The notes beneath the pieces were generated by a model, which saw only the letters and a program-made list of their open reading frames with translations, was not told the origin of the DNA and searched no databases. Made by a program: the position numbers and the translations under genes. A stretch of 64,000 nucleotides of DNA from Escherichia coli phage phiS: sequence record PP449093.1; one strand, 5' to 3'. Shown piece by piece: positions 33,713 to 59,269 of the stretch (the stretch's first letter is position 1; every line of letters starts with the position of its first letter).

Positions 33713-34198
33713 GTGCTAAAAATGGGAGGATCTAACACTTATAAGGGCAAGTATAAGCCAGAAAATCCTGAGAAGTATAAAGGGAATAACTTACACAAGA
33801 TCACGTATCGGTCAAGCTGGGAGTTGCACATTTTTAAGTGGCTAGACCGTAACCCTAGAGTCGCTAAATGGGGGTCGGAGACCGTAGTGATTCCATACTG
33901 GTCCAGCGCCGATAACAAAAAAAGGCGCTACTACATGGATATATACGTTAAGTTTGATGATGGTAAAGAGCATTTATGGGAAATAAAACCAGCAAAAGAG
34001 ACAAGGCCACCAGAAAGGCCAAAAAGAATAACCACTAAGACTAAGCAAAGATATATGCAAGAGTGTTACACATACACAGTGAACACAGAAAAATGGAAAG
34101 CTGCGGTTGATTTATGCCAAAAGCATAACATGGAGTTTAAGATCATAACTGAACACGCATTAAAGAAAGTATTTGGCTTTAAAGGGCTTAACAAATAG
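33713..34198 (+). CDS. 4: head completion nuclease gp4
   Basis: 161-aa ORF with YKGKYKPENPEKY...ITYRSSWEL...EIKP motifs; T4 gene 4 position divergent from gene 53. Confidence 0.75.
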   Translation: MLKMGGSNTYKGKYKPENPEKYKGNNLHKITYRSSWELHIFKWLDRNPRVAKWGSETVVIPYWSSADNKKRRYYMDIYVKFDDGKEHLWEIKPAKETRPPERPKRITTKTKQRYMQECYTYTVNTEKWKAAVDLCQKHNMEFKIITEHALKKVFGFKGLNK

Positions 34199-34209
34199 AG
34201 GATAATATT

Positions 34210-35031
34210 ATGAGCGTATTTGAAATAATCACAGAAGACGAAAAGCCGTCTCCCCAAAAGCGAAAGTCTAAACAGTGGGTCGAATTGGGCGTAGAATTTG
34301 CGAAAGCAAAAGCCAAAGGCATGACAGCTAAAGCATTCGCAGATTCTAAGGGAATAGCCTATGCGACTTTCACTAAAAGTATGTCTCGTTATGCCAGCGA
34401 AATTAAAACAGCAATAGAAGTTGAAAAACTAAAAGGGAAAGGTGCAAAGGGTCTCAATAAGCAGCAACGCGCAATGATGATGATTAATGATTTTCGTGCG
34501 TCTATGCGTGCTGTATCAAAGAGTCGTCCTAAAGAAAAATCACAAGAGTGGTTTACTAAAACAATAAAATCGGGAATAAAGGGACACCAGATTGTAAAAC
34601 CGCAAGTAGGGAGAATCTATACCTTTATGTATGATGCGAAGTATAAAGACACTTTGCCATATTGGGATGTTTTCCCGCTGATCATTTGTCTGGGTGATTC
34701 TAAGACAAAGGCGGGTAATACTGTAATGCTGGGTCTTAACTTACACTATGTAACGCCTAAAGCCCGTCAGCAGTTTTTAGAGGCACTTTTAAAGCAATAT
34801 GCATCTACTCCTACCTTGAGTAATAAAACACGCTTAAAAATCAAATGGAGCGATGTAAAAGGTATGCGTGGAAGTGATCACATGATCAAAGCATATCTAC
34901 CGGGACACATTAAAACAAAACTTGTTGAGATTAGCCCGAAAGACTGGAGCAATATCATCTATATGCCAACATATCAGTTTATGTCAAAAGGCAAGAAATA
35001 CGACGCAAGGAAAGTCTGGAAGGATGCATAA
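34210..35031 (+). CDS. 2: DNA end protector protein gp2
   Basis: 273-aa ORF; T4 gp2 size (274 aa) and position after gene 4. Confidence 0.75.
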   Translation: MSVFEIITEDEKPSPQKRKSKQWVELGVEFAKAKAKGMTAKAFADSKGIAYATFTKSMSRYASEIKTAIEVEKLKGKGAKGLNKQQRAMMMINDFRASMRAVSKSRPKEKSQEWFTKTIKSGIKGHQIVKPQVGRIYTFMYDAKYKDTLPYWDVFPLIICLGDSKTKAGNTVMLGLNLHYVTPKARQQFLEALLKQYASTPTLSNKTRLKIKWSDVKGMRGSDHMIKAYLPGHIKTKLVEISPKDWSNIIYMPTYQFMSKGKKYDARKVWKDA

Positions 35032-35534: not shown

Positions 35535-36068
35535 ATGTCTGGTTTTAAGATGTGGGATGATTTTACACAAAAAGAAATTAGAGATAAGTATAAACACGTT
35601 AATGGTATATTGTACCATTTGAAAGACAGTGGAAAGAATGGTCGATGGTATAAGGCAGGAGACCCGGTTAAAGTTTATAAAAATAGTCGAGGTTATCTAT
35701 GTTTTAAGTTTTGGCGCAGTGATGGCTATTCTTTGGTCATTAAAGTTCATAGGGTTGTTTGGTATCTTGAACATGGTACGCAAGTTAAAATGATCGACCA
35801 TGTAGATAGAAACCGAGAAAATAATGCACCGGATAACTTGAGAGAATCCACTTCTCAGGAAAATGCATTCAATCGCGGAAAACTTGATGGTTGTAAGAGC
35901 AAGTATAAAGGAGTGATTAGAACACAGAATAACAAATGGTGTGCTCAGATATCAATCAATCGTAGAAAGGTCCATTTGGGCGTCTTTCTTGACGAAGTTG
36001 ATGCTGCAAAGGCTTATGACGAAGCAGCAAAGGAACATTTTGGAGATTATGCTAGTTTAAATTTTTAG
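35535..36068 (+). CDS. HNH homing endonuclease with AP2 DNA-binding domain
   Basis: HNH_3-like motif IDHVDRNRENNAPDNLRESTSQEN; AP2-like domain YKGVIR...KWCAQISINRRKVHLGVF...AAKAYDEAAKEHFGDYASLNF; inserted between genes 2 and 3. Confidence 0.8.
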   Translation: MSGFKMWDDFTQKEIRDKYKHVNGILYHLKDSGKNGRWYKAGDPVKVYKNSRGYLCFKFWRSDGYSLVIKVHRVVWYLEHGTQVKMIDHVDRNRENNAPDNLRESTSQENAFNRGKLDGCKSKYKGVIRTQNNKWCAQISINRRKVHLGVFLDEVDAAKAYDEAAKEHFGDYASLNF

Positions 36069-36099: not shown

Positions 36100-36690
36100 A
36101 TGTCCAATCTCTTTAACTATGCTAACCCTAGCAACTGGCAGATTGCCATTCCAGATGGTCAACTAACAAAAGGCTTTACTTTAAACTGTCAAGGTGTTAC
36201 ACTTCCGGCTATAACCATTCCACCGACTAAACAAGTTGCTGGTCAATATGGTTTGGCGGTTGCTGATTATCCGTCTAGTCATGTAGAGTTTGACCCGCTG
36301 GTAGTCCGGTTTATTGTCGATGAGCATTTGGAAAGTTATCTAAACCTTTACACATGGATGCTTTCTATAGTAGACTACAATAACGGTAACTCCACAGCGT
36401 GGAAGGATTCAATGCCGGAAGCCGTTCAAGTTCACATGATGGACAACGAACGCCGTAACATTGTGTGCACTTTTAACTTTTATGGTTGTTGGTGTTCACA
36501 ATTGGGGGAACTTGAGTTAACATACACCGATGATATGCATGAATCTCTGGTGTGTACTGCAATTCTTCCCTTTAAAACAATGAGCATTGAACGTGATGGT
36601 CAACTGATCGTTCCTCGCCCAGCAATTCAGGCGGCGGATCGTCAGAGGGTGGAAGGTATTAAAGCTATGCACCCTGCTTTTAGAAAGTAA
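36100..36690 (+). CDS. 3: tail completion / tube terminator protein gp3 (by position)
   Basis: 196-aa ORF between gene 2 and gene 1 as in T4. Confidence 0.55.
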   Translation: MSNLFNYANPSNWQIAIPDGQLTKGFTLNCQGVTLPAITIPPTKQVAGQYGLAVADYPSSHVEFDPLVVRFIVDEHLESYLNLYTWMLSIVDYNNGNSTAWKDSMPEAVQVHMMDNERRNIVCTFNFYGCWCSQLGELELTYTDDMHESLVCTAILPFKTMSIERDGQLIVPRPAIQAADRQRVEGIKAMHPAFRK

Positions 36691-36705
36691 TAAGAGGCTT
36701 ATATA

Positions 36706-37362
36706 ATGAAATTGATTGCACTTTGTGGTAAAAAGCGAGTAGGAAAAGACACTGCCGCGTTAATCATTGATGGACATAGTTATCAACTGGCAGCACCGAT
36801 CAAAGAAATATTGTGCGAATGTCAACCAGACTTAGGTCTGACTTATCTTGACTTTGACGGGTTAGGGCGTGACAGAGAATCCGATCTAGGTATTGATACC
36901 TATACCGCGCATAAGTGGTTTATTCAGTGTCTTCTTATGCTAGATTCGAAGTATGGTGGTAGTTCCTTTACTTGTGATCGTCTGGCTGAGATTTACAAGG
37001 TCGTTAATGAGATTGGCGAAAAACATAATAACGTCTGGTCTATTCGTCTCATGTTAACCACTCTCGGTACTGATATAATGGTTAACTTGATCAATCCGCT
37101 TTATTGGTGTAATCTCTTCGTGGATGAGTTTATGAAGCGCAAAAATGAAGAAGGTTATTTTGTAGTGGTTGATGTGCGTCAGCCTATTGAAATTGCTCTC
37201 GTGCGTGCTATGGGTGCTAAGGTGTTGCATATTCAGCGTGATACTGGTATTGTATCGACTCACTCCACCGAAAAAGGAATTTTGCCTATTGACGGTGAAA
37301 CCATTATCATAAATAATGGTACATTAGAAGAATTTGAAAGCGCGATTCTCGCGAACATTTAA
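36706..37362 (+). CDS. 1: deoxynucleoside monophosphate kinase gp1
   Basis: P-loop LCGKKRVGKDT near the N-terminus; T4 gene 1 position. Confidence 0.8.
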   Translation: MKLIALCGKKRVGKDTAALIIDGHSYQLAAPIKEILCECQPDLGLTYLDFDGLGRDRESDLGIDTYTAHKWFIQCLLMLDSKYGGSSFTCDRLAEIYKVVNEIGEKHNNVWSIRLMLTTLGTDIMVNLINPLYWCNLFVDEFMKRKNEEGYFVVVDVRQPIEIALVRAMGAKVLHIQRDTGIVSTHSTEKGILPIDGETIIINNGTLEEFESAILANI

Positions 37363-37388: not shown

Positions 37389-37655
37389 GTGAATATGTCC
37401 AATCAGCATGAACAAATGATTAATGTCCTGAAAGTACGTCTGTTTGACACTCAAGAAAAGGCCGCATTCTTAGAAGGCCAACTGAAAGATCGTGAGCGTG
37501 TATTGATGGAACTGGTACGCATTCTGGGTATTCAGCCAGACGAAAACGGCACTGTTTCCCTTGATGCTATTGTCGAAGAAGTGAAAGCACTTCTCCCTAA
37601 AGACGAAGCCGCAGAAGAAGCAGAAGAGGAAGTAGAACTGATCAAGGAGGCTTGA
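37389..37655 (+). CDS. 57A: tail fiber assembly chaperone gp57A-like
   Basis: 88-aa helical, acidic-tailed ORF between gene 1 and 57B; position and size. Confidence 0.5.
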   Translation: MNMSNQHEQMINVLKVRLFDTQEKAAFLEGQLKDRERVLMELVRILGIQPDENGTVSLDAIVEEVKALLPKDEAAEEAEEEVELIKEA

Positions 37656-38122
37656 TTATGACCCCGTTTAGAGAATCCGTTAAAGGTACATATGCGGCGG
37701 TTAAATTCACTGAGGATACACTAGACCGCATTGAAAAATTGCAGGAGTTCTACGATCTGCCTAATGCCGTTCCTCGTGATAAACTGCATAGCACTATCTT
37801 ATATTCTCGTGTCTATGTTCCGTTTATCCCAGAAGAAGGGGAGAAGTTCTTAGGCTCTCTATGCCATCTGAAAGTGTTTGAAACTCAATCCGGTACTAAT
37901 GCGCTTGTGCTGGCATTTGAAAGCGACTACATGCAATTCAGACACGATATCGGCACTGCTTTAGGTGCGACGTGGGATTATCCTGAATATGTACCGCATA
38001 TCACGCTTTCTTATGATGTTGGTGCGCGTAAATTTGGCACTGACCTAGAGTTTGATTTAGAGATTGTCCGATCTCATGAGTATGTCGAAGATCTAGACCT
38101 GGAGTGGACGACCAAACTGTAA
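37652..38122 (+). CDS. acb1: 2H phosphoesterase, Acb1-like (gene 57B) cyclic-oligonucleotide nuclease
   Basis: 156-aa ORF with two H-x-T/S-x motifs (HSTIL and HITLS) typical of the 2H/LigT fold; position of T4 57B, which I recall as anti-CBASS Acb1. Confidence 0.7.
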   Translation: MIMTPFRESVKGTYAAVKFTEDTLDRIEKLQEFYDLPNAVPRDKLHSTILYSRVYVPFIPEEGEKFLGSLCHLKVFETQSGTNALVLAFESDYMQFRHDIGTALGATWDYPEYVPHITLSYDVGARKFGTDLEFDLEIVRSHEYVEDLDLEWTTKL

Positions 38123-38129
38123 TTTTATA

Positions 38130-38160
38130 CCCCGAAAATTTTTCGGGGTTTTTTGTTTTT
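38130..38160 (+). terminator. Rho-independent terminator
   Basis: Hairpin CCCCGAAAATTTTTCGGGG followed by a long T-run. Confidence 0.7.
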
Positions 38161-38165
38161 AGGTG

Positions 38166-38194
38166 TTGACAACCATAAACGACTATAGCATAAT
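38166..38194 (+). promoter_or_regulatory. early promoter cassette copy 1 (TTGACA-17-CATAAT)
   Basis: Sigma70-like -35/-10 followed by conserved leader ATCGAAACGAAACAC and SD GGAGAATCAAA ATG. Confidence 0.6.
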
Positions 38195-38231: not shown

Positions 38232-38609
38232 ATGATGATGATGTTTAAAGATAAGTTCGAATGTCACTACACCCGTAACTTTTACTTAGTATCCCGCTAC
38301 TACATTCATAAAGAAACTGGTACGCAAGTAGTTCTTGAATCTCACAGCGAAGTAGGATTCGATTCAACAAAAGTAGCAATTAGTGCTCGCTTCTGGGATA
38401 ACGGCAAATTTGCTTATATCGCTTGGAACGACGACGAAAATGTAATTACAGTAGCTTTCGGTGATGACTACTACACTAAAAAGACTTTCGATAGCAAGCC
38501 ATCAAATGAATACCTGAAAGCGTATGTGCAGCACATGTTCCAACGTGTTCTGACCGGAATGGAAATCAATGTCATGAAAGACATTGTAGACGAAGTAAAA
38601 TTTTCTTAA
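38232..38609 (+). CDS. hypothetical protein (125 aa)
   Basis: ORF trimmed to first ATG after the GGAGAATCAAA SD (MMMMFKDK...). Confidence 0.55.
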   Translation: MMMMFKDKFECHYTRNFYLVSRYYIHKETGTQVVLESHSEVGFDSTKVAISARFWDNGKFAYIAWNDDENVITVAFGDDYYTKKTFDSKPSNEYLKAYVQHMFQRVLTGMEINVMKDIVDEVKFS

Positions 38610-38675: not shown

Positions 38676-38834
38676 ATGAAATTTATCGGTAAAACTTTTA
38701 TGTTCGTAGCTGGTACTCTGTTTACTGCAACTCTGTTAGCTGGTGGCTTAGATATCTTTACTGCATTTGAAACTTTCGGGTATACTGTAGCATCGGGTGC
38801 TCTCTTCGGATTGGGTTTAGCGATTAGCAAATAA
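38676..38834 (+). CDS. small membrane protein (52 aa)
   Basis: ORF MKFIGKTFMFVAGTLFTATLLAGG... after SD AGGAGAATCAAA; hydrophobic; below ORF-track cutoff. Confidence 0.5.
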   Translation: MKFIGKTFMFVAGTLFTATLLAGGLDIFTAFETFGYTVASGALFGLGLAISK

Positions 38835-38843
38835 GGTGATAAT

Positions 38844-39047
38844 ATGGAATTTGATATGGTTAAAGCAAAATTTATGGGTAAGGATAAGAGCGGTAAAACA
38901 TTTGTTATTAATAGAACATTGTTTCGCTCTGACCTTAAGTGGGTAACACAACAATTTGCGGAAGTCAACGAGGCAGTTGTGACATGCTTCGTTGATGGTA
39001 AAAAAGTTTTTGAAATTGATCGTCGTGGGATGTCTAATGATCACTAA
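38844..39047 (+). CDS. hypothetical protein (67 aa)
   Basis: ORF with SD GGTGA upstream. Confidence 0.5.
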   Translation: MEFDMVKAKFMGKDKSGKTFVINRTLFRSDLKWVTQQFAEVNEAVVTCFVDGKKVFEIDRRGMSNDH

Positions 39048-43990: not shown

Positions 43991-44566
43991 ATGGCTTTTA
44001 AATATTGGGATGAATCCCTACAAAACGAGATAAAACTTAGATATGCTCATATAGAGGGTATCTTATATTATAGAGTCGATAGTAAAGCTATCAAAGGACG
44101 ACCATTAGGGAGTAGATATAAACACGGCGATTTAGTTAAAGTCAGAACAAATAAAGATGGTCATCTTAGATTTTGGCATAGTAGAGATGACGGTCTTCCT
44201 AGAGTTCATCTATTCGTGCATAGGGTTGTTTGGTTTCTGGAACATGGGACGCAAGTTAGATTAATTGATCATATTGACGGGAATCCTGCTAATAACAATC
44301 CTCCAAATCTTAGGGAGGCAACCGACGCGCAAAATCAACACAATAGAAAGAAGAAGTCTAAAAAGTTTTCTAGTGTGTATAAGGGTGTTAGTAAGTGTAA
44401 CAGGAAGGATTTGCGTAAGAAATGGAGAGCTAGTATAATGGTCAACCTAAAAAGACATGTTCTTGGACAATATGACACAGAAATCGAAGCTGCAATCGCT
44501 TATGATAATGCAGCTAGGAAATTTTATGGAGAATATGCTCTATTGAATTTCCCAGATCCAAAATAA
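43991..44566 (+). CDS. HNH homing endonuclease with AP2 domain
   Basis: HNH motif IDHIDGNPANNNPPNLREATDAQNQHN and AP2-like YKGVSK...IEAAIAYDNAARKFYGEYALLNF; paralog of 35535-36068. Confidence 0.8.
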   Translation: MAFKYWDESLQNEIKLRYAHIEGILYYRVDSKAIKGRPLGSRYKHGDLVKVRTNKDGHLRFWHSRDDGLPRVHLFVHRVVWFLEHGTQVRLIDHIDGNPANNNPPNLREATDAQNQHNRKKKSKKFSSVYKGVSKCNRKDLRKKWRASIMVNLKRHVLGQYDTEIEAAIAYDNAARKFYGEYALLNFPDPK

Positions 44567-45249: not shown

Positions 45250-45666
45250 ATGGAATTTAAAGCAATTCAAATCATGAAAGGTGAGCATAAAGGTACTATT
45301 ATTGGTGGACACTTCGCGCCTATGATTCTGGTATCCGAACCGAAAGCACTGATCGGCGCTAAAGTAATTGTTAGTAAAACTTTCGCAGAAGACCATGTGA
45401 TCACCGCAGAAGACGTCGATTCTCTGGCACTGCACACAACTAGCTTCCGTCCTGTTTATATCGAAGATAGTATTGGTATGAAGCGAGGATCTCAACATCT
45501 CAACGTCAATGTAATGAATCGCGACCTTCTTCTGGATGCGGTAGAGAATCCGGATAAATATCCATCACTAACTGTACGAATTTCAGGCTATGCGGTCAGA
45601 TTTAATGCACTTACGCCGGAACAACAACGAGATATCATTACCCGAACCTTCACGGAAGCAATGTAA
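45250..45666 (+). CDS. grcA: autonomous glycyl radical cofactor (GrcA/YfiD-like)
   Basis: C-terminus GSQHLNVNVMNRDLLLDAVENPDKYPSLTVRISGYAVRFNALTPEQQRDIITRTFTEAM carries the glycyl radical motif RxSGYAVRF and closely resembles recalled E. coli GrcA. Confidence 0.85.
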   Translation: MEFKAIQIMKGEHKGTIIGGHFAPMILVSEPKALIGAKVIVSKTFAEDHVITAEDVDSLALHTTSFRPVYIEDSIGMKRGSQHLNVNVMNRDLLLDAVENPDKYPSLTVRISGYAVRFNALTPEQQRDIITRTFTEAM

Positions 45667-45672
45667 TTTTTT

Positions 45673-45705
45673 AAGCCAATCCTAAAGGGTTGGCTTTTTC
45701 TTTTT
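45673..45705 (+). terminator. Rho-independent terminator after grcA
   Basis: Hairpin AGCCAATCCTAAAGGGTTGGCT followed by TTTTTCTTTTT. Confidence 0.6.
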
Positions 45706-45749
45706 ATTGTGATATGATGACAAAACTTAACAACATGGAGATTGACATT

Positions 45750-46277
45750 ATGATTAAAAGATATTGTGACGACCATCCGGTGGAAGAGTGGAAAGTGATT
45801 GAGGATCTTTATCCGTTAACTCATTTTGAGATTAGCTCTCATGGTCGAGTTAGAAATTCTATTACCGGAAAATATTTGTCTATTGTTGAAACGAAAGATT
45901 ATACTAAAGTTTCTTTTAAGCATCGTCCTAGTAAAACGCATAAAACTTTAAACATGCATAGGATGATGGCTGTTGCGTTTATTCCTAATCCTAATAATTA
46001 TCGTGTAGTTAACCATAAGGATGGAAACAAGAGAAATTTTGACCTGTACAATCTTGAATGGACTACAGACACGCGAAATCTTGCTCATGCAAAGGAAGAA
46101 GGGTTAAACAAAAATTGGGGAGAGAACCACGGAAACGCAAAACTAACAGATAAGCAAGTGAAAGAGATTTTAGCTTCTCCACATATGAAAGGTGTAGAGC
46201 TTGCAAGAAAATATAATGTTACCCCTGCCACAATTAGCCGTGTCCGAAATGGTAAAGTCCGTAACGTCAAATACTAA
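45750..46277 (+). CDS. HNH homing endonuclease (NUMOD4-type N-terminus, C-terminal HTH)
   Basis: NUMOD4-like EEWKVIEDLYPLTHFEISSHGRVRN; HNH-like VNHKDGNKRNFDLYNLEWTT; C-terminal HTH ARKYNVTPATISRVRNG. Confidence 0.7.
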   Translation: MIKRYCDDHPVEEWKVIEDLYPLTHFEISSHGRVRNSITGKYLSIVETKDYTKVSFKHRPSKTHKTLNMHRMMAVAFIPNPNNYRVVNHKDGNKRNFDLYNLEWTTDTRNLAHAKEEGLNKNWGENHGNAKLTDKQVKEILASPHMKGVELARKYNVTPATISRVRNGKVRNVKY

Positions 46278-47010: not shown

Positions 47011-47205
47011 ATGCAAGTTTATACCAATAGCAATAAAGGACAAGATATTACGCCCGGAAAGATGTATGATTTTACCCCGGCACGAGACGACGAAAATCCA
47101 CCGACAATCGGGTATATTGAAGATGATGCGGGGTTTCGTATTACAATACTTCTTAAGGATGGATGTTTTCATCTTCGCGGTGATCGTTGGGAGTTAGTAC
47201 CATGA
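47011..47205 (+). CDS. hypothetical protein, tandem paralog family member 1
   Basis: 64-aa ORF; shares Y-x-TP...GYI-DD-G...I-I-LK-C-HL-GR-W-LV pattern with the next two ORFs. Confidence 0.5.
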   Translation: MQVYTNSNKGQDITPGKMYDFTPARDDENPPTIGYIEDDAGFRITILLKDGCFHLRGDRWELVP

Positions 47206-47447
47206 TGTATGTGATGACACCTTATAGTAACCGCAAGTATATTACACCTAATACACTGTATGAATATACACCACATGAAAGATTTTCGAATAGTGGTTAT
47301 ATCCGTGATGATAAGGGACACCAGATTTTTATTTGTCTTAAAAATTGTGCACACTTAGACGGTCGAACCTGGACACTGGTCGAAGAACCAAAACAACATG
47401 AGAATAAAGGTCTTTGGAATGTGCTAAAAAAATTCTTGAAAAAGTAG
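47202..47447 (+). CDS. hypothetical protein, tandem paralog family member 2
   Basis: ATGA overlap start; same family pattern. Confidence 0.5.
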   Translation: MMYVMTPYSNRKYITPNTLYEYTPHERFSNSGYIRDDKGHQIFICLKNCAHLDGRTWTLVEEPKQHENKGLWNVLKKFLKK

Positions 47448-47506: not shown

Positions 47507-47842
47507 ATGAGTGTTAAAGAAGTGTTTGTTTATACCGACTATGACGGGTGCGCCTATCTCACTGCTGGAAAACTTTACCGTTGTGAGATTATTCATGGTA
47601 CGCTAGGTCGAATTATGTGCGATCCGATTACAAAATTGTGGAAAAATAATCCTAGTGAGCGAGAAACTCTTATTAACCTAGATCCAGACGGTTGTTCACA
47701 TTTGGACTATAGAAAATGGCATATAGTTACACATGATGCTTATGGTATTCATCTTGCTACTAAAGAATTAACTATTGACAAGTTCAAGTTTAAAGAAATC
47801 CCGTTTGTATACTGGCTTCGCAATTTGTTTAAGAAAGGATAA
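47507..47842 (+). CDS. hypothetical protein, tandem paralog family member 3
   Basis: ORF trimmed to ATG after cassette SD (MSVKEVFVYTDYDGCAYLTAGKLY...); same family pattern. Confidence 0.55.
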   Translation: MSVKEVFVYTDYDGCAYLTAGKLYRCEIIHGTLGRIMCDPITKLWKNNPSERETLINLDPDGCSHLDYRKWHIVTHDAYGIHLATKELTIDKFKFKEIPFVYWLRNLFKKG

Positions 47843-49328: not shown

Positions 49329-49784
49329 ATGATTATTGATACTGTAAAGGGCGATCTCATCGCCCTGTTTAAACAAGGAAACGGTCATTTAATTCATGGT
49401 TGTAATTGTTTTCATACTATGGGCGCTGGTATTGCTGCAAAGATCGCGAAAGAGTTACCGCAAGCGTTAGAGATTGACAAGCAAACTTCTCGCGGTAAGG
49501 TAGAAAAGCTGGGTGGGTTTAGTGTCTGGACGCATCAAGTTAATGGTTATAACTGGTGCGGGGTGAATCTCTATACCCAATTCCGACCGGGTCCAAATGC
49601 TGAATATGGTGCTATCCTGAAAGGATTTGAGACTATCAATGATGTTTTTGAAGGTGCTATACAGCCTTTCTATATTCCTAAAATCGGTTGCGGTATCGGT
49701 GGCCTTGAGTGGGAATGTGTAGAAGAGATCATTAATATTGCTACTCCAGACATTAACATTGTGGTGGTTGAATATGACAAATAA
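49329..49784 (+). CDS. macro-domain-like protein (putative ADP-ribose binding/hydrolase)
   Basis: Pattern GDL...LIHGCNCFHTMGAGIAAKIA...GGFSVWTHQVNG...IPKIGCGIGGLEWE resembles the macro-domain glycine-rich loops; weak assignment from motif reading only. Confidence 0.45.
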   Translation: MIIDTVKGDLIALFKQGNGHLIHGCNCFHTMGAGIAAKIAKELPQALEIDKQTSRGKVEKLGGFSVWTHQVNGYNWCGVNLYTQFRPGPNAEYGAILKGFETINDVFEGAIQPFYIPKIGCGIGGLEWECVEEIINIATPDINIVVVEYDK

Positions 49785-57288: not shown

Positions 57289-57720
57289 ATGGTTTATCCA
57301 ACTCCTAGTAAGATTTACATTGATGATACCCATTTTATGGTTGATATGATGGGTATAAAGTTTAGTGGTATTGTTAAAATTGTAGAATGGGAATTGCACG
57401 GTCAACCTGTCACTGACTATGACCATTACATTCCTTTTTTGGGTGATGACAATTTTGTCTCGTTTGACCATGAAGGTTACATGATCTTTGAACAGTCTGA
57501 CGTACCAACCTATCTGGCAATGATGCAAATTCCTACGAAGGTTTCTGTTGCTGAGGGTGATTGCGATTGCTGCGGTTGGTATAGTGTAACAGATATTAAG
57601 TTGCCATCCGGTAAAGAACTCTATAACGAAGACCATTTTGGAAACTGCAACTTTCCGTGTGATTGGGATGAATTTTTCGAACTGGTAGAAACTGAAAGAA
57701 CTTATTTAAGGAAGGGATAA
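57289..57720 (+). CDS. hypothetical Cys-rich protein (143 aa)
   Basis: Preceded by GAGGATTATATAATG; CDCCGW...CNFPCDW. Confidence 0.5.
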   Translation: MVYPTPSKIYIDDTHFMVDMMGIKFSGIVKIVEWELHGQPVTDYDHYIPFLGDDNFVSFDHEGYMIFEQSDVPTYLAMMQIPTKVSVAEGDCDCCGWYSVTDIKLPSGKELYNEDHFGNCNFPCDWDEFFELVETERTYLRKG

Positions 57721-58490
57721 TGAAGAAAGCATTAGGTTTAATTCCCTATACTGGCAATAAGGAAAAGTTATTGCCAGGTGTTAGTAAGTATTTCCCTAAG
57801 CACTACAACCGCTTTGTTGATGCCTTTTGTGGTGGTTTGAGCGTGTCTCTGTATGTTGAAGGTGATGTGCTGGCTAATGACTATGATCACCGTTTAATTG
57901 ACGCTTACAAGGCCATTGATGCGTGTCCTGAACCAGTTTCTACGATCAAGCGGATTATTGCCGAGAATGGTTTGTCTCGCGATGATAAAGATGCTTACAT
58001 GGCATTCCGTAAGAAGTATAACGAGAATCCAGATCCGCTATCTCTGTTTGTTCTGATCCAGCATAGTTTTAGCAACATTAACCGCCATAACCGGAAGGGC
58101 GAATTTAATGCTAACTTTGGTCGCCGGACTTTTAACGAAAATGCGGTAGAGCGTGTCCTGAATTTTAAAGAAGAAAACAAAGACGGTCGAATCAATTTTA
58201 CTTCTGGACGATATGACGAGATCGAGATCTTGCCGGATGATTTCGTTTTCCTTGATCCGCCATATTGGATCACGTCGGCAGAATATAATAAGTTCTGGAG
58301 TGAAGAAGAAGAGATTAAATTCTACATGTGGATAGAATCATTAATGTCTAGCGGTGCTAAGTTTGGATTAAGCAATGTTACTCACCACAAAGGGAAAGTT
58401 AACAACCATCTGCTCGATTTTATCGAACGTAATGATGTTTCTGTTGTTGAACTGGATAAAACATATTGTTTAGATCGTAGCGGGGGGTAA
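57720..58490 (+). CDS. dam: DNA adenine methyltransferase (Dam)
   Basis: Blocks YTGNKEKLLP, NRFVDAFCGGLSVSL and DPPY closely resemble recalled T4 Dam. Confidence 0.85.
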   Translation: MKKALGLIPYTGNKEKLLPGVSKYFPKHYNRFVDAFCGGLSVSLYVEGDVLANDYDHRLIDAYKAIDACPEPVSTIKRIIAENGLSRDDKDAYMAFRKKYNENPDPLSLFVLIQHSFSNINRHNRKGEFNANFGRRTFNENAVERVLNFKEENKDGRINFTSGRYDEIEILPDDFVFLDPPYWITSAEYNKFWSEEEEIKFYMWIESLMSSGAKFGLSNVTHHKGKVNNHLLDFIERNDVSVVELDKTYCLDRSGG

Positions 58491-58513: not shown

Positions 58514-59269
58514 ATGTCACCAATGTTAAAATATGAGGTTATACACAAGACTCCAGAAGATAAACGTTTATATGATTTATATCATTCACGGTTTTATTAT
58601 GATGATGGTTTTCTTAGGTGGAAGATTCACCCGCACCGAAAAGGTGTTATAAACGGATTAGCTGGAAGTGATACCCCCGATGGGTATCGTATTGTATGGA
58701 CTGGCGAGCGATACGAACGTATGCACCGTGTTATCTATCATATGTTTCATGGTCATTGTCCTAAGTATATAGATCATAAAGACCGAGATCGTTATAATAG
58801 CCGCATTGAAAACCTTAGAGAGACGACAAGCAAACAAAATAATATGAATATGAGCAAGACCAAATGCAAAACATATTCGAAGTATAAAGGTGTGTCGTTT
58901 AATAAGAATAAAGGTTATTGGACTGGTGCAATAATGTTGGATGGGAAGTCGATACATTTAGGATATTTTCCCTCTGAGATCGGTGCGGCGTATGCATATA
59001 ATCTTGCAGCGTTGAAACATTTTGGTGATAGGTCTTGTATAAACGAGATTGATGATATAGAATATGCAAAGTCTGAATATGACAAGAAGCTCCAAAAAGC
59101 AGCAAGTTCCCGTCATAGATACGTTTACAAAGTACCAAAACAAGGTAATTACGGTGCTAAAGTTCGCGGTGTGTATATAGGAAGATTTGACACAGAATAT
59201 GATGCGGCACGGGCAGTTAATGCCTATATTATTGAAAATGAACTTGATATAGAACTGAATGAGGTATAA
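58514..59269 (+). CDS. HNH homing endonuclease with two AP2-like domains
   Basis: HNH motif IDHKDRDRYNSRIENLRETTSKQN; AP2-like YKGVSF...GYWTGAIMLDGKSIHLGYF...AAYAYNLAALKHFG and a second AP2-like repeat. Confidence 0.75.
   Translation: MSPMLKYEVIHKTPEDKRLYDLYHSRFYYDDGFLRWKIHPHRKGVINGLAGSDTPDGYRIVWTGERYERMHRVIYHMFHGHCPKYIDHKDRDRYNSRIENLRETTSKQNNMNMSKTKCKTYSKYKGVSFNKNKGYWTGAIMLDGKSIHLGYFPSEIGAAYAYNLAALKHFGDRSCINEIDDIEYAKSEYDKKLQKAASSRHRYVYKVPKQGNYGAKVRGVYIGRFDTEYDAARAVNAYIIENELDIELNEV

What the first reader, a model, noticed from the sequence alone, without database searches (positions are those of the whole stretch)
37652..38122. Acb1-like 2H phosphoesterase (anti-CBASS candidate) in the 57B position
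The ORF after 57A has two H-x-T/S motifs (HSTILYSR, HITLSYDV) at spacing typical of the 2H phosphoesterase fold. It occupies the T4 57B position, which I recall as encoding Acb1, a nuclease that degrades cyclic oligonucleotide signals of CBASS and related defences. It is likely the main anti-defence gene recognisable in the window.
Basis: partly seen in the sequence, partly recalled or inferred. Interest (0 to 1): 0.5.

Follow-up and report, generated by a model that had tools for sequence, protein, structure and literature searches.

The report
Ordinary Acb1 anti-CBASS gene (57B)

Summary
The motif pair alone is weak evidence (4.5% of shuffles). The homology is decisive:
- Pfam Acb1 (PF23474): E=1.5e-51, 174 bits against a cut-off of 27.
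- Crystal structure of Erwinia phage FBB1 Acb1 (7T26/7T27): 53% identity over 144 aa, E=1.8e-43.
- T4 gp57B/Acb1: 48% identity.

All residues that Hobbs et al. 2022 tie to catalysis or ligand binding are present or conservatively replaced: H44/T46, H114/T116, Y12, F74, Y108, E144, W150.

The gene order 3–1–57A–57B matches T4. The window is a Krischvirus (RB49/JSE-like) genome at 98–99% nucleotide identity. Across seven Krischvirus copies, 14 nucleotide sites vary and none changes an amino acid.

The gene is translationally coupled to 57A and ends at an intrinsic terminator. It most likely cleaves 3'3'-cGAMP, cUA, cAAA and cAAG to linear products and so blunts CBASS.

It is not the only anti-defence gene here: dmd lies three genes downstream. 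Activity was not tested. The finding is ordinary, already known and of low interest.

The parts
37658..38122 (+). acb1 (gene 57B) coding sequence, 154 aa plus stop
   Evidence: ORF. Pfam PF23474 Acb1 E=1.5e-51. PDB 7T26 E=1.8e-43. Same CDS boundaries are annotated in JSE, kaaroe, JK32, KMB43 and Whisky.
37644..37650 (+). Shine-Dalgarno AAGGAGG inside the end of 57A, 7 nt before ATG 37658; the 57A stop TGA is at 37653-37655, so the two genes are probably translationally coupled
   Evidence: Read directly from the sequence. Coupling is inferred.
37787..37795 (+). First catalytic motif H44-S45-T46 (equals T4 H44/T46)
   Evidence: Sequence. Invariant in 10 diverse homologues. Catalytic role taken from PMC9117128.
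37997..38005 (+). Second catalytic motif H114-I115-T116 (equals T4 H113/T115)
   Evidence: Sequence. Invariant in 10 diverse homologues. Catalytic role taken from PMC9117128.
38087..38119 (+). C-terminal segment E144...W150...L154: adenine-contacting Glu (T4 E141) and lid Trp (T4 W147)
   Evidence: Alignment with T4 and FBB1. Lid and contacts described in PMC9117128.
38129..38159 (+). Intrinsic terminator: 9-bp stem ACCCCGAAA/TTTCGGGGT followed by a T-run, 7 nt after the stop codon
   Evidence: Terminator scan. RNA fold -12.8 kcal/mol, z=-2.9. vB_EcoM_G2494 and two other vB_EcoM Krischvirus records annotate 'terminator (x2)' within the 2-kb stretch window:36700-38700; their positions were not checked.
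37395..37655 (+). Upstream gene 57A (tail fibre chaperone), which defines the '57B position'
   Evidence: Pfam GP57 E=2.5e-06, 27.6 bits against a cut-off of 27. JSE annotation.
37289..37317 (+). Sigma-70-like promoter match (TTGACG-17-AATAAT) inside the 3' end of gene 1; a possible early promoter for 57A-acb1
   Evidence: Consensus scan only, 10 of 12 matches. Not evidence of function.

Best explanation
The gene is the Krischvirus (RB49/JSE-type) orthologue of T4 gene 57B, acb1. It encodes a 154-aa, metal-independent 2H phosphodiesterase.

By homology, the enzyme binds cyclic di- and trinucleotide CBASS signals that contain at least one adenosine (3'3'-cGAMP, cUA, cAAA, cAAG) in a U-shaped pocket. 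Aromatic residues Y12, F74, Y108 and W150 stack on the bases, and E144 reads the adenine N6. The H44/T46 + H114/T116 tetrad then drives attack of the 2'-OH on the 3'-5' bond next to adenosine. The reaction passes through a cyclic-phosphate intermediate to a linear 3'-phosphate product.

Removing the second messenger keeps CBASS effectors off, so the phage completes its cycle.

The gene is the last in a 57A-acb1 unit, probably coupled to 57A translation and closed by an intrinsic terminator.

Shown here: homology, conserved residues, synteny and purifying selection. Inferred: activity, substrate range, timing of expression and the in vivo anti-CBASS effect.
For: - Pfam Acb1 PF23474: E=1.5e-51, 174.4 bits against a gathering score of 27, covering model positions 1-143 of 144.
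- PHROG 755: E=9.8e-55.
- The only solved-structure match is Acb1 7T26/7T27: E=1.8e-43, 53% identity over 144 aa.
- 48% identity to T4 gp57B over the full length.
- Hobbs et al. 2022 (PMC9117128) showed that T4 57B is Acb1 and that 9 further homologues all cleaved 3'3'-cGAMP and cAAA. They also defined the catalytic and ligand-contact residues.
- All those residues are present here or conservatively replaced. F74 and Y108 are the same residues as in the crystallised FBB1 enzyme.
- Gene order 4-2-3-1-57A-57B matches T4 and JSE.
- Across 7 Krischvirus copies, 14 nucleotide sites vary and no amino acid changes. 55 phage records encode a protein at least 99% identical.
- Shine-Dalgarno sequence and terminator are present.
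Against: - There is no biochemical or genetic test of this protein. An RB49-type phage (vB_EcoM-G2494) was in the Hobbs lysate screen, but its result is in a figure I could not read.
- Single-sequence AlphaFold gave an unusable model (pLDDT 37), so the fold rests on sequence homology to 7T26.
- At 48-53% identity to the characterised enzymes, the substrate range could differ in detail.
- No convincing promoter was identified. There are only consensus matches, and no T4 late-promoter motif lies nearby.
Confidence: 0.93

Rival explanations
1. It is a generic LigT-type 2H enzyme acting on RNA (2'-5' RNA ligase or 2',3'-cyclic phosphodiesterase in RNA repair), as the 'RNA ligase' label in RefSeq and PHROG annotation implies.
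For: JSE, T4 and many other records name the gene 'RNA ligase'. PHROG 755 carries the same label. There are weak Pfam matches to 2_5_RNA_ligase2 (E=0.0011) and LigT_PEase (E=0.057).
Against: Both LigT-type matches fall below their curated cut-offs (19.4 against 27 bits; 14.1 against 23.3), whereas the Acb1 model scores 174 bits. The residues that hold a cyclic dinucleotide in the Acb1 structure are conserved. The 'RNA ligase' name is a family label and does not show a tested activity. T4 gp57B was shown biochemically to be a cyclic-oligonucleotide phosphodiesterase (PMC9117128).
Confidence: 0.03
2. The enzyme chemistry is the same, but the main physiological target in this phage's hosts is not CBASS. 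It could be another cA3 or cyclic-dinucleotide signalling defence, such as cA3-using type III CRISPR. The gene would also be a liability, because guard systems (type II Panoptes) fire when cA3 is degraded.
For: Acb1 degrades cA3. Acb1-encoding Tevenvirinae phages of the BASEL collection are restricted by type II Panoptes and escape through acb1 mutations (PMC13577387). Overexpressed Acb1 also reduced colony formation with type I Panoptes (PMC12657218).
Against: This extends the main explanation and does not replace it. The only direct in vivo protection data for Acb1 concern CBASS (PMC9117128). Nothing in this sequence distinguishes the targets.
Confidence: 0.08
3. It is a decayed or catalytically dead relic, or a chance ORF that happens to carry two H-x-T motifs.
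For: The motif pair alone occurs in 4.5% of shuffles.
Against: The full-length profile match is E=1.5e-51. The catalytic tetrad is intact. All 14 variable nucleotide sites among 7 Krischvirus copies are synonymous. The gene has a Shine-Dalgarno sequence and a terminator.
Confidence: 0.01

Closest known systems
T4 Acb1 (gene 57B product, NP_049750.1; Hobbs et al. 2022, PMC9117128)
   Same: 48% identity over the full length. Same position after 57A, in the gene order 3-1-57A-57B. Same HxT/HxT tetrad, and the same Y12, E (T4 141) and W (T4 147). Similar size (154 against 152 aa).
   Different: W74 is F and F107 is Y (both aromatic). There is one extra residue in the 79-82 loop and two in the 127-133 region. 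In T4 the next gene is ipI followed by a tRNA cluster. Here the next gene is an unrelated 124-aa protein of unknown function, no ipI homologue was found, and the window has no tRNA genes.
Erwinia phage FBB1 Acb1, crystal structures 7T26 (apo) and 7T27 (with a 3'3'-cGAMP analogue)
   Same: 53% identity over 144 aa, E=1.8e-43. Shares F74 and Y108 with the window protein, so the base-stacking pocket is closer to FBB1 than to T4.
   Different: Different phage and host. There is a two-residue length difference before the last strand.
LigT / 2'-5' RNA ligase and other cellular 2H phosphoesterases (Pfam PF13563, PF02834)
   Same: Same superfamily signature of two H-x-T/S motifs and metal-independent chemistry. 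Weak Pfam similarity.
   Different: The matches are below the curated thresholds. The substrate is a cyclic oligonucleotide and not an RNA end (PMC9117128).
Acb2 (T4 Vs.4), the cyclic-nucleotide sponge
   Same: Same biological purpose: removing CBASS second messengers.
   Different: Acb2 is unrelated in sequence and mechanism; it sequesters the signal and does not cleave it. No Vs.4 homologue was detected anywhere in this window, although the window covers the syntenic regB-vs.6 region.

Membership tests
Acb1 (Pfam PF23474, anti-CBASS protein 1) | Match to the curated family profile above its gathering score, over the full length | tested here: met
   174.4 bits against a cut-off of 27, E=1.5e-51, profile positions 1-143 of 144.
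Acb1 (Pfam PF23474, anti-CBASS protein 1) | Compact 2H phosphoesterase fold, as in 7T26/7T27 | tested here: met
   Met by sequence homology only: 53% identity over 144 of 154 residues to the crystallised FBB1 Acb1. The single-sequence AlphaFold model was too poor to superpose (pLDDT 37).
Acb1 (Pfam PF23474, anti-CBASS protein 1) | Catalytic HxT/HxT tetrad (T4 H44, T46, H113, T115) | tested here: met
   H44, T46, H114 and T116 are present and invariant across 10 diverse homologues. Roles are from PMC9117128.
Acb1 (Pfam PF23474, anti-CBASS protein 1) | Base-stacking aromatics (T4 Y12, W74, F107, W147) and the adenine-specific Glu (T4 E141) | tested here: met
   Y12, F74, Y108, W150 and E144. The two substitutions are aromatic-for-aromatic and identical to the FBB1 enzyme.
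Acb1 (Pfam PF23474, anti-CBASS protein 1) | C-terminal lid segment that closes over the ligand | tested here: met
   The C-terminus aligns to its end with T4 and FBB1, including the lid Trp. Lid closure itself cannot be tested here.
Acb1 (Pfam PF23474, anti-CBASS protein 1) | In T4-like phages, position immediately downstream of 57A (gene 57B) | tested here: met
   57A (Pfam GP57) lies at 37395-37655, with dNMP kinase and gp3 upstream. The order is the same in T4 and JSE.
Acb1 (Pfam PF23474, anti-CBASS protein 1) | Cleavage of 3'3'-cGAMP and cAAA (but not cGG or cA4) to linear 3'-phosphate products | not testable with these tools
   Biochemistry is required. All 10 homologues assayed by Hobbs et al. 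were active, but I cannot tell whether any of them was a Krischvirus protein.
Acb1 (Pfam PF23474, anti-CBASS protein 1) | Protection of the phage from CBASS in vivo | not testable with these tools
   This needs a deletion mutant and CBASS-carrying hosts.
LigT / 2'-5' RNA ligase (Pfam PF13563, PF02834) | Match to the family profile above its gathering score | tested here: not met
   19.4 bits against 27 and 14.1 bits against 23.3, partial matches only.

The most novel reading that the evidence does not exclude
In the part of the genome covered by this window, the phage carries Acb1 but no detectable Acb2 sponge in the syntenic vs region. Its Acb1 pocket (F74/Y108) matches the FBB1 type, not the T4 type. 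The Krischvirus enzyme might therefore have a broadened or shifted substrate range that compensates for the missing sponge. In that case it would be the phage's sole countermeasure against cyclic-oligonucleotide signalling, and its sole trigger for cA3-guard systems.
Probability: 0.1. Interest if true: 0.3.

Novelty: already known. Interest (0 to 1): 0.1.

Why it matters
It matters little beyond correct annotation. The family, its structure and its mechanism were published in 2022, and it has a curated Pfam model. The identical protein is in dozens of deposited Krischvirus genomes. Those records mostly label it 'hypothetical protein' or 'RNA ligase', so relabelling it Acb1 is a useful correction.

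There are two practical consequences. RB49/JSE-type phages, several of which are being developed for therapy, probably resist many CBASS systems. They may also be sensitive to guard systems that sense loss of cA3 (type II Panoptes; PMC13577387).

Tried and rejected
- **Single-sequence AlphaFold2.** Mean pLDDT was 37 and pTM 0.36, so the model was unusable and I ran no fold search.
- **Large protein-database searches.** I did not use them to build an alignment for a second model. With 53% identity to a crystal structure and a 174-bit curated profile match, a model could not change the verdict.
- **T4 late-promoter motif TATAAATA.** None lies near the gene, and the window count (8) is no higher than chance.
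- **Sigma-70-like matches upstream** (37289-37317 and 36679-36707). These are consensus hits only, so I do not claim a promoter.
- **Acb2 in the syntenic vs region.** Pfam found nothing in the three small ORFs there. tblastn with T4 Vs.3, Vs.4, Vs.5, IPI and IPII gave only chance-level hits, all with E of 0.4 or more.
- **Literature search for Acb1 together with RB49, Krischvirus or JSE.** No paper discusses this orthologue. An RB49-type phage is listed in the Hobbs lysate screen, but its result is only in a figure.
- **TTG 37652 as the start codon.** Rejected because it lies 1 nt after the Shine-Dalgarno sequence and overlaps the 57A stop.

Full report
**Observation**

An ORF runs on the + strand from TTG 37652 to the stop at 38120-38122.
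- Numbered from ATG 37658, the two histidines are H44 (codon 37787-37789) and H114 (37997-37999), 70 residues apart.
- The TTG is an unlikely start. It overlaps the 57A stop codon (TGA 37653-37655) and lies 1 nt after the Shine-Dalgarno AAGGAGG (37644-37650).
- ATG 37658 lies 7 nt after that Shine-Dalgarno sequence. It is the start annotated in every annotated Krischvirus record I fetched.
- The motif pair is not strong evidence on its own. A pair of H-x-[ST] motifs 55-95 residues apart appears in 4.5% of shuffles of this protein and in 2 of 52 comparable ORFs of the window.

**What it is**

The 154-aa protein matches three independent references.
- Pfam Acb1 model PF23474: E=1.5e-51, 174.4 bits against a gathering score of 27, covering positions 1-143 of 144.
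- PHROG 755: E=9.8e-55.
- Protein Data Bank: its only sequence match is Acb1 of Erwinia phage FBB1 (7T26/7T27), E=1.8e-43, 53% identity over 144 residues.

It is 48% identical to T4 gp57B over the full length. The generic 2H families (2_5_RNA_ligase2, LigT_PEase) match only below their cut-offs.

Hobbs et al. 2022 (PMC9117128) identified T4 57B as Acb1. [quoted passage not shown] They also described the mechanism:
- a 2H fold with a U-shaped pocket;
- stacking by Y12, W74, F107 and W147;
- adenine recognition by E141;
- an H44/T46/H113/T115 tetrad;
- a C-terminal lid;
- metal-independent cleavage 3' of adenosine through a cyclic phosphate intermediate.

In the window protein these positions are Y12, F74, Y108, W150, E144 and H44/T46/H114/T116. 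F74 and Y108 are the residues found in the crystallised FBB1 enzyme. The tetrad, Y12 and the Glu are invariant in ten homologues from Escherichia, Erwinia, Acinetobacter, Morganella, Aeromonas, Vibrio, Klebsiella and Pseudomonas phages.

**Context**

The window is a Krischvirus (RB49/JSE-type, Straboviridae) genome segment.
- The 2 kb around the gene are 98-99% identical to 58 phage records.
- The flanks match JSE and relatives at 95-97%.
- The local gene order on the + strand is gene 4 (33713-34198), gene 2 (34210-35031), an HNH-AP2 homing endonuclease (35535-36068), gene 3 (36100-36690), gene 1 dNMP kinase (36706-37362), 57A (37395-37655) and acb1. This is the T4 order 4-2-3-1-57A-57B.
- Seven nucleotides after the stop there is an intrinsic terminator at 38129-38149 plus a T-run.
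- A near-consensus sigma-70 match (TTGACA-17-CATAAT, 38166-38194) follows, in front of the next gene.

**Selection**

Among the window and six other Krischvirus copies (JSE, RB49, kaaroe, JK32, KMB43, Whisky), 14 nucleotide sites vary: 12 at third codon positions and 2 at first. None changes an amino acid. In the phage collection, 55 records encode a protein at least 99% identical, and about 1,475 records hold a homologue.

**Mechanism (inferred from homology)**

The enzyme most likely hydrolyses adenosine-containing cyclic di- and trinucleotide second messengers made by CBASS CD-NTases. This would keep effectors such as Cap4, Cap5 and CapV inactive. Recent work adds a cost: because Acb1 degrades cA3, Acb1-encoding T-even phages are restricted by type II Panoptes and escape through acb1 mutations (PMC13577387). 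T4 acb1 was not needed for type I Panoptes defence (PMC12657218).

**Rivals**

- The 'RNA ligase' label in RefSeq and PHROG annotation is not supported here. The LigT-type profiles fall below their thresholds, and the ligand-contact residues of Acb1 are conserved.
- A dead relic or chance ORF is excluded by the intact tetrad, the profile match and purifying selection.

Acb1 is not the only recognisable anti-defence gene in the window.
- dmd lies three genes downstream (38844-39047; Pfam Dmd E=1.5e-14).
- A Dam methylase is at 57720-58490.
- Gene 2, the DNA end protector, is at 34210-35031 by synteny with JSE.
- A Tk.4 macro-domain protein is at 49329-49784.
- No homologue of T4 Acb2 (Vs.4) or IPI was detected.

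**Limits**

- No activity data exist for this protein.
- The single-sequence AlphaFold model was unusable.
- I deliberately did not run the large database searches, because they could not change the conclusion.

**Verdict**

The gene is a known Acb1 orthologue that is already present, often mislabelled, in public genomes. Interest is low.

Noticed in passing
window 38844-39047 (+): A dmd homologue (Pfam Dmd E=1.5e-14; PHROG 2102) lies three genes downstream of acb1. Together they form a small acb1-X-Y-dmd cluster that could be an anti-defence islet.
   Followed up: partly
window 38235-38609 (+) and 38676-38834 (+): The gene in the T4 ipI position is an unrelated 124-aa protein (phrog_15253, unknown function). 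It has only a sub-threshold Pfam match to Gp30.7 and its own near-consensus promoter at 38166-38194. A 52-aa ORF of unknown function (phrog_16462), rich in hydrophobic residues, follows. No ipI homologue is present in the window.
   Followed up: partly
window 47011-47205, 47199-47447, 47507-47842 (+): Three tandem paralogous small ORFs (64, 82 and 111 aa; phrog_6261 and phrog_15978, unknown function) lie between regB and nrdC.11. This is where T4 has vs.3, vs.4 (Acb2) and vs.5. No Acb2 homologue is detectable.
   Followed up: partly
window 35535-36068, 43991-44566, 58514-59269 and 45690-46277 (+): There are three paralogous HNH-AP2 homing endonuclease genes and one HNH-NUMOD4 gene. The first lies between genes 2 and 3, where JSE carries a different insertion (an 'endonuclease' of 380 aa plus a small ORF). 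This intergenic site therefore varies among Krischvirus genomes.
   Followed up: partly
window 49329-49784 (+): A Tk.4-like macro-domain protein (Pfam Macro E=4.5e-06; PHROG 335 'phosphatase'). Its target is unknown.
   Followed up: no
whole window: ARAGORN finds no tRNA genes. In T4, a cluster of at least seven tRNA genes lies about 1.4 kb from 57B.
   Followed up: no
window 33713-34198 (+): The gene 4 (head completion) product matches Pfam Tn7_TnsA-like_N, an endonuclease-type fold, at E=2e-20.
   Followed up: no
window 45250-45666 (+): The Vs.6 homologue carries a glycine-radical domain (Pfam Gly_radical E=1.9e-14). This agrees with the GrcA-like annotation of T4 vs.6.
   Followed up: no
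L012 (Klebsiella phage 05F) and L013 (Escherichia phage UPEC03): In Slopekvirus and Pseudotevenvirus, the Acb1 homologues are longer (over 185 aa, with a C-terminal extension) and have Lys in place of the lid Trp (T4 W147). They may be a variant subgroup.
   Followed up: no
L014 (Pseudomonas phage psageK9): An Acb1-like domain with an intact HxT/HxT tetrad forms the C-terminus of a roughly 600-aa protein in a 51-kb phage that is not T4-like. This is a fused form of the family.
   Followed up: no
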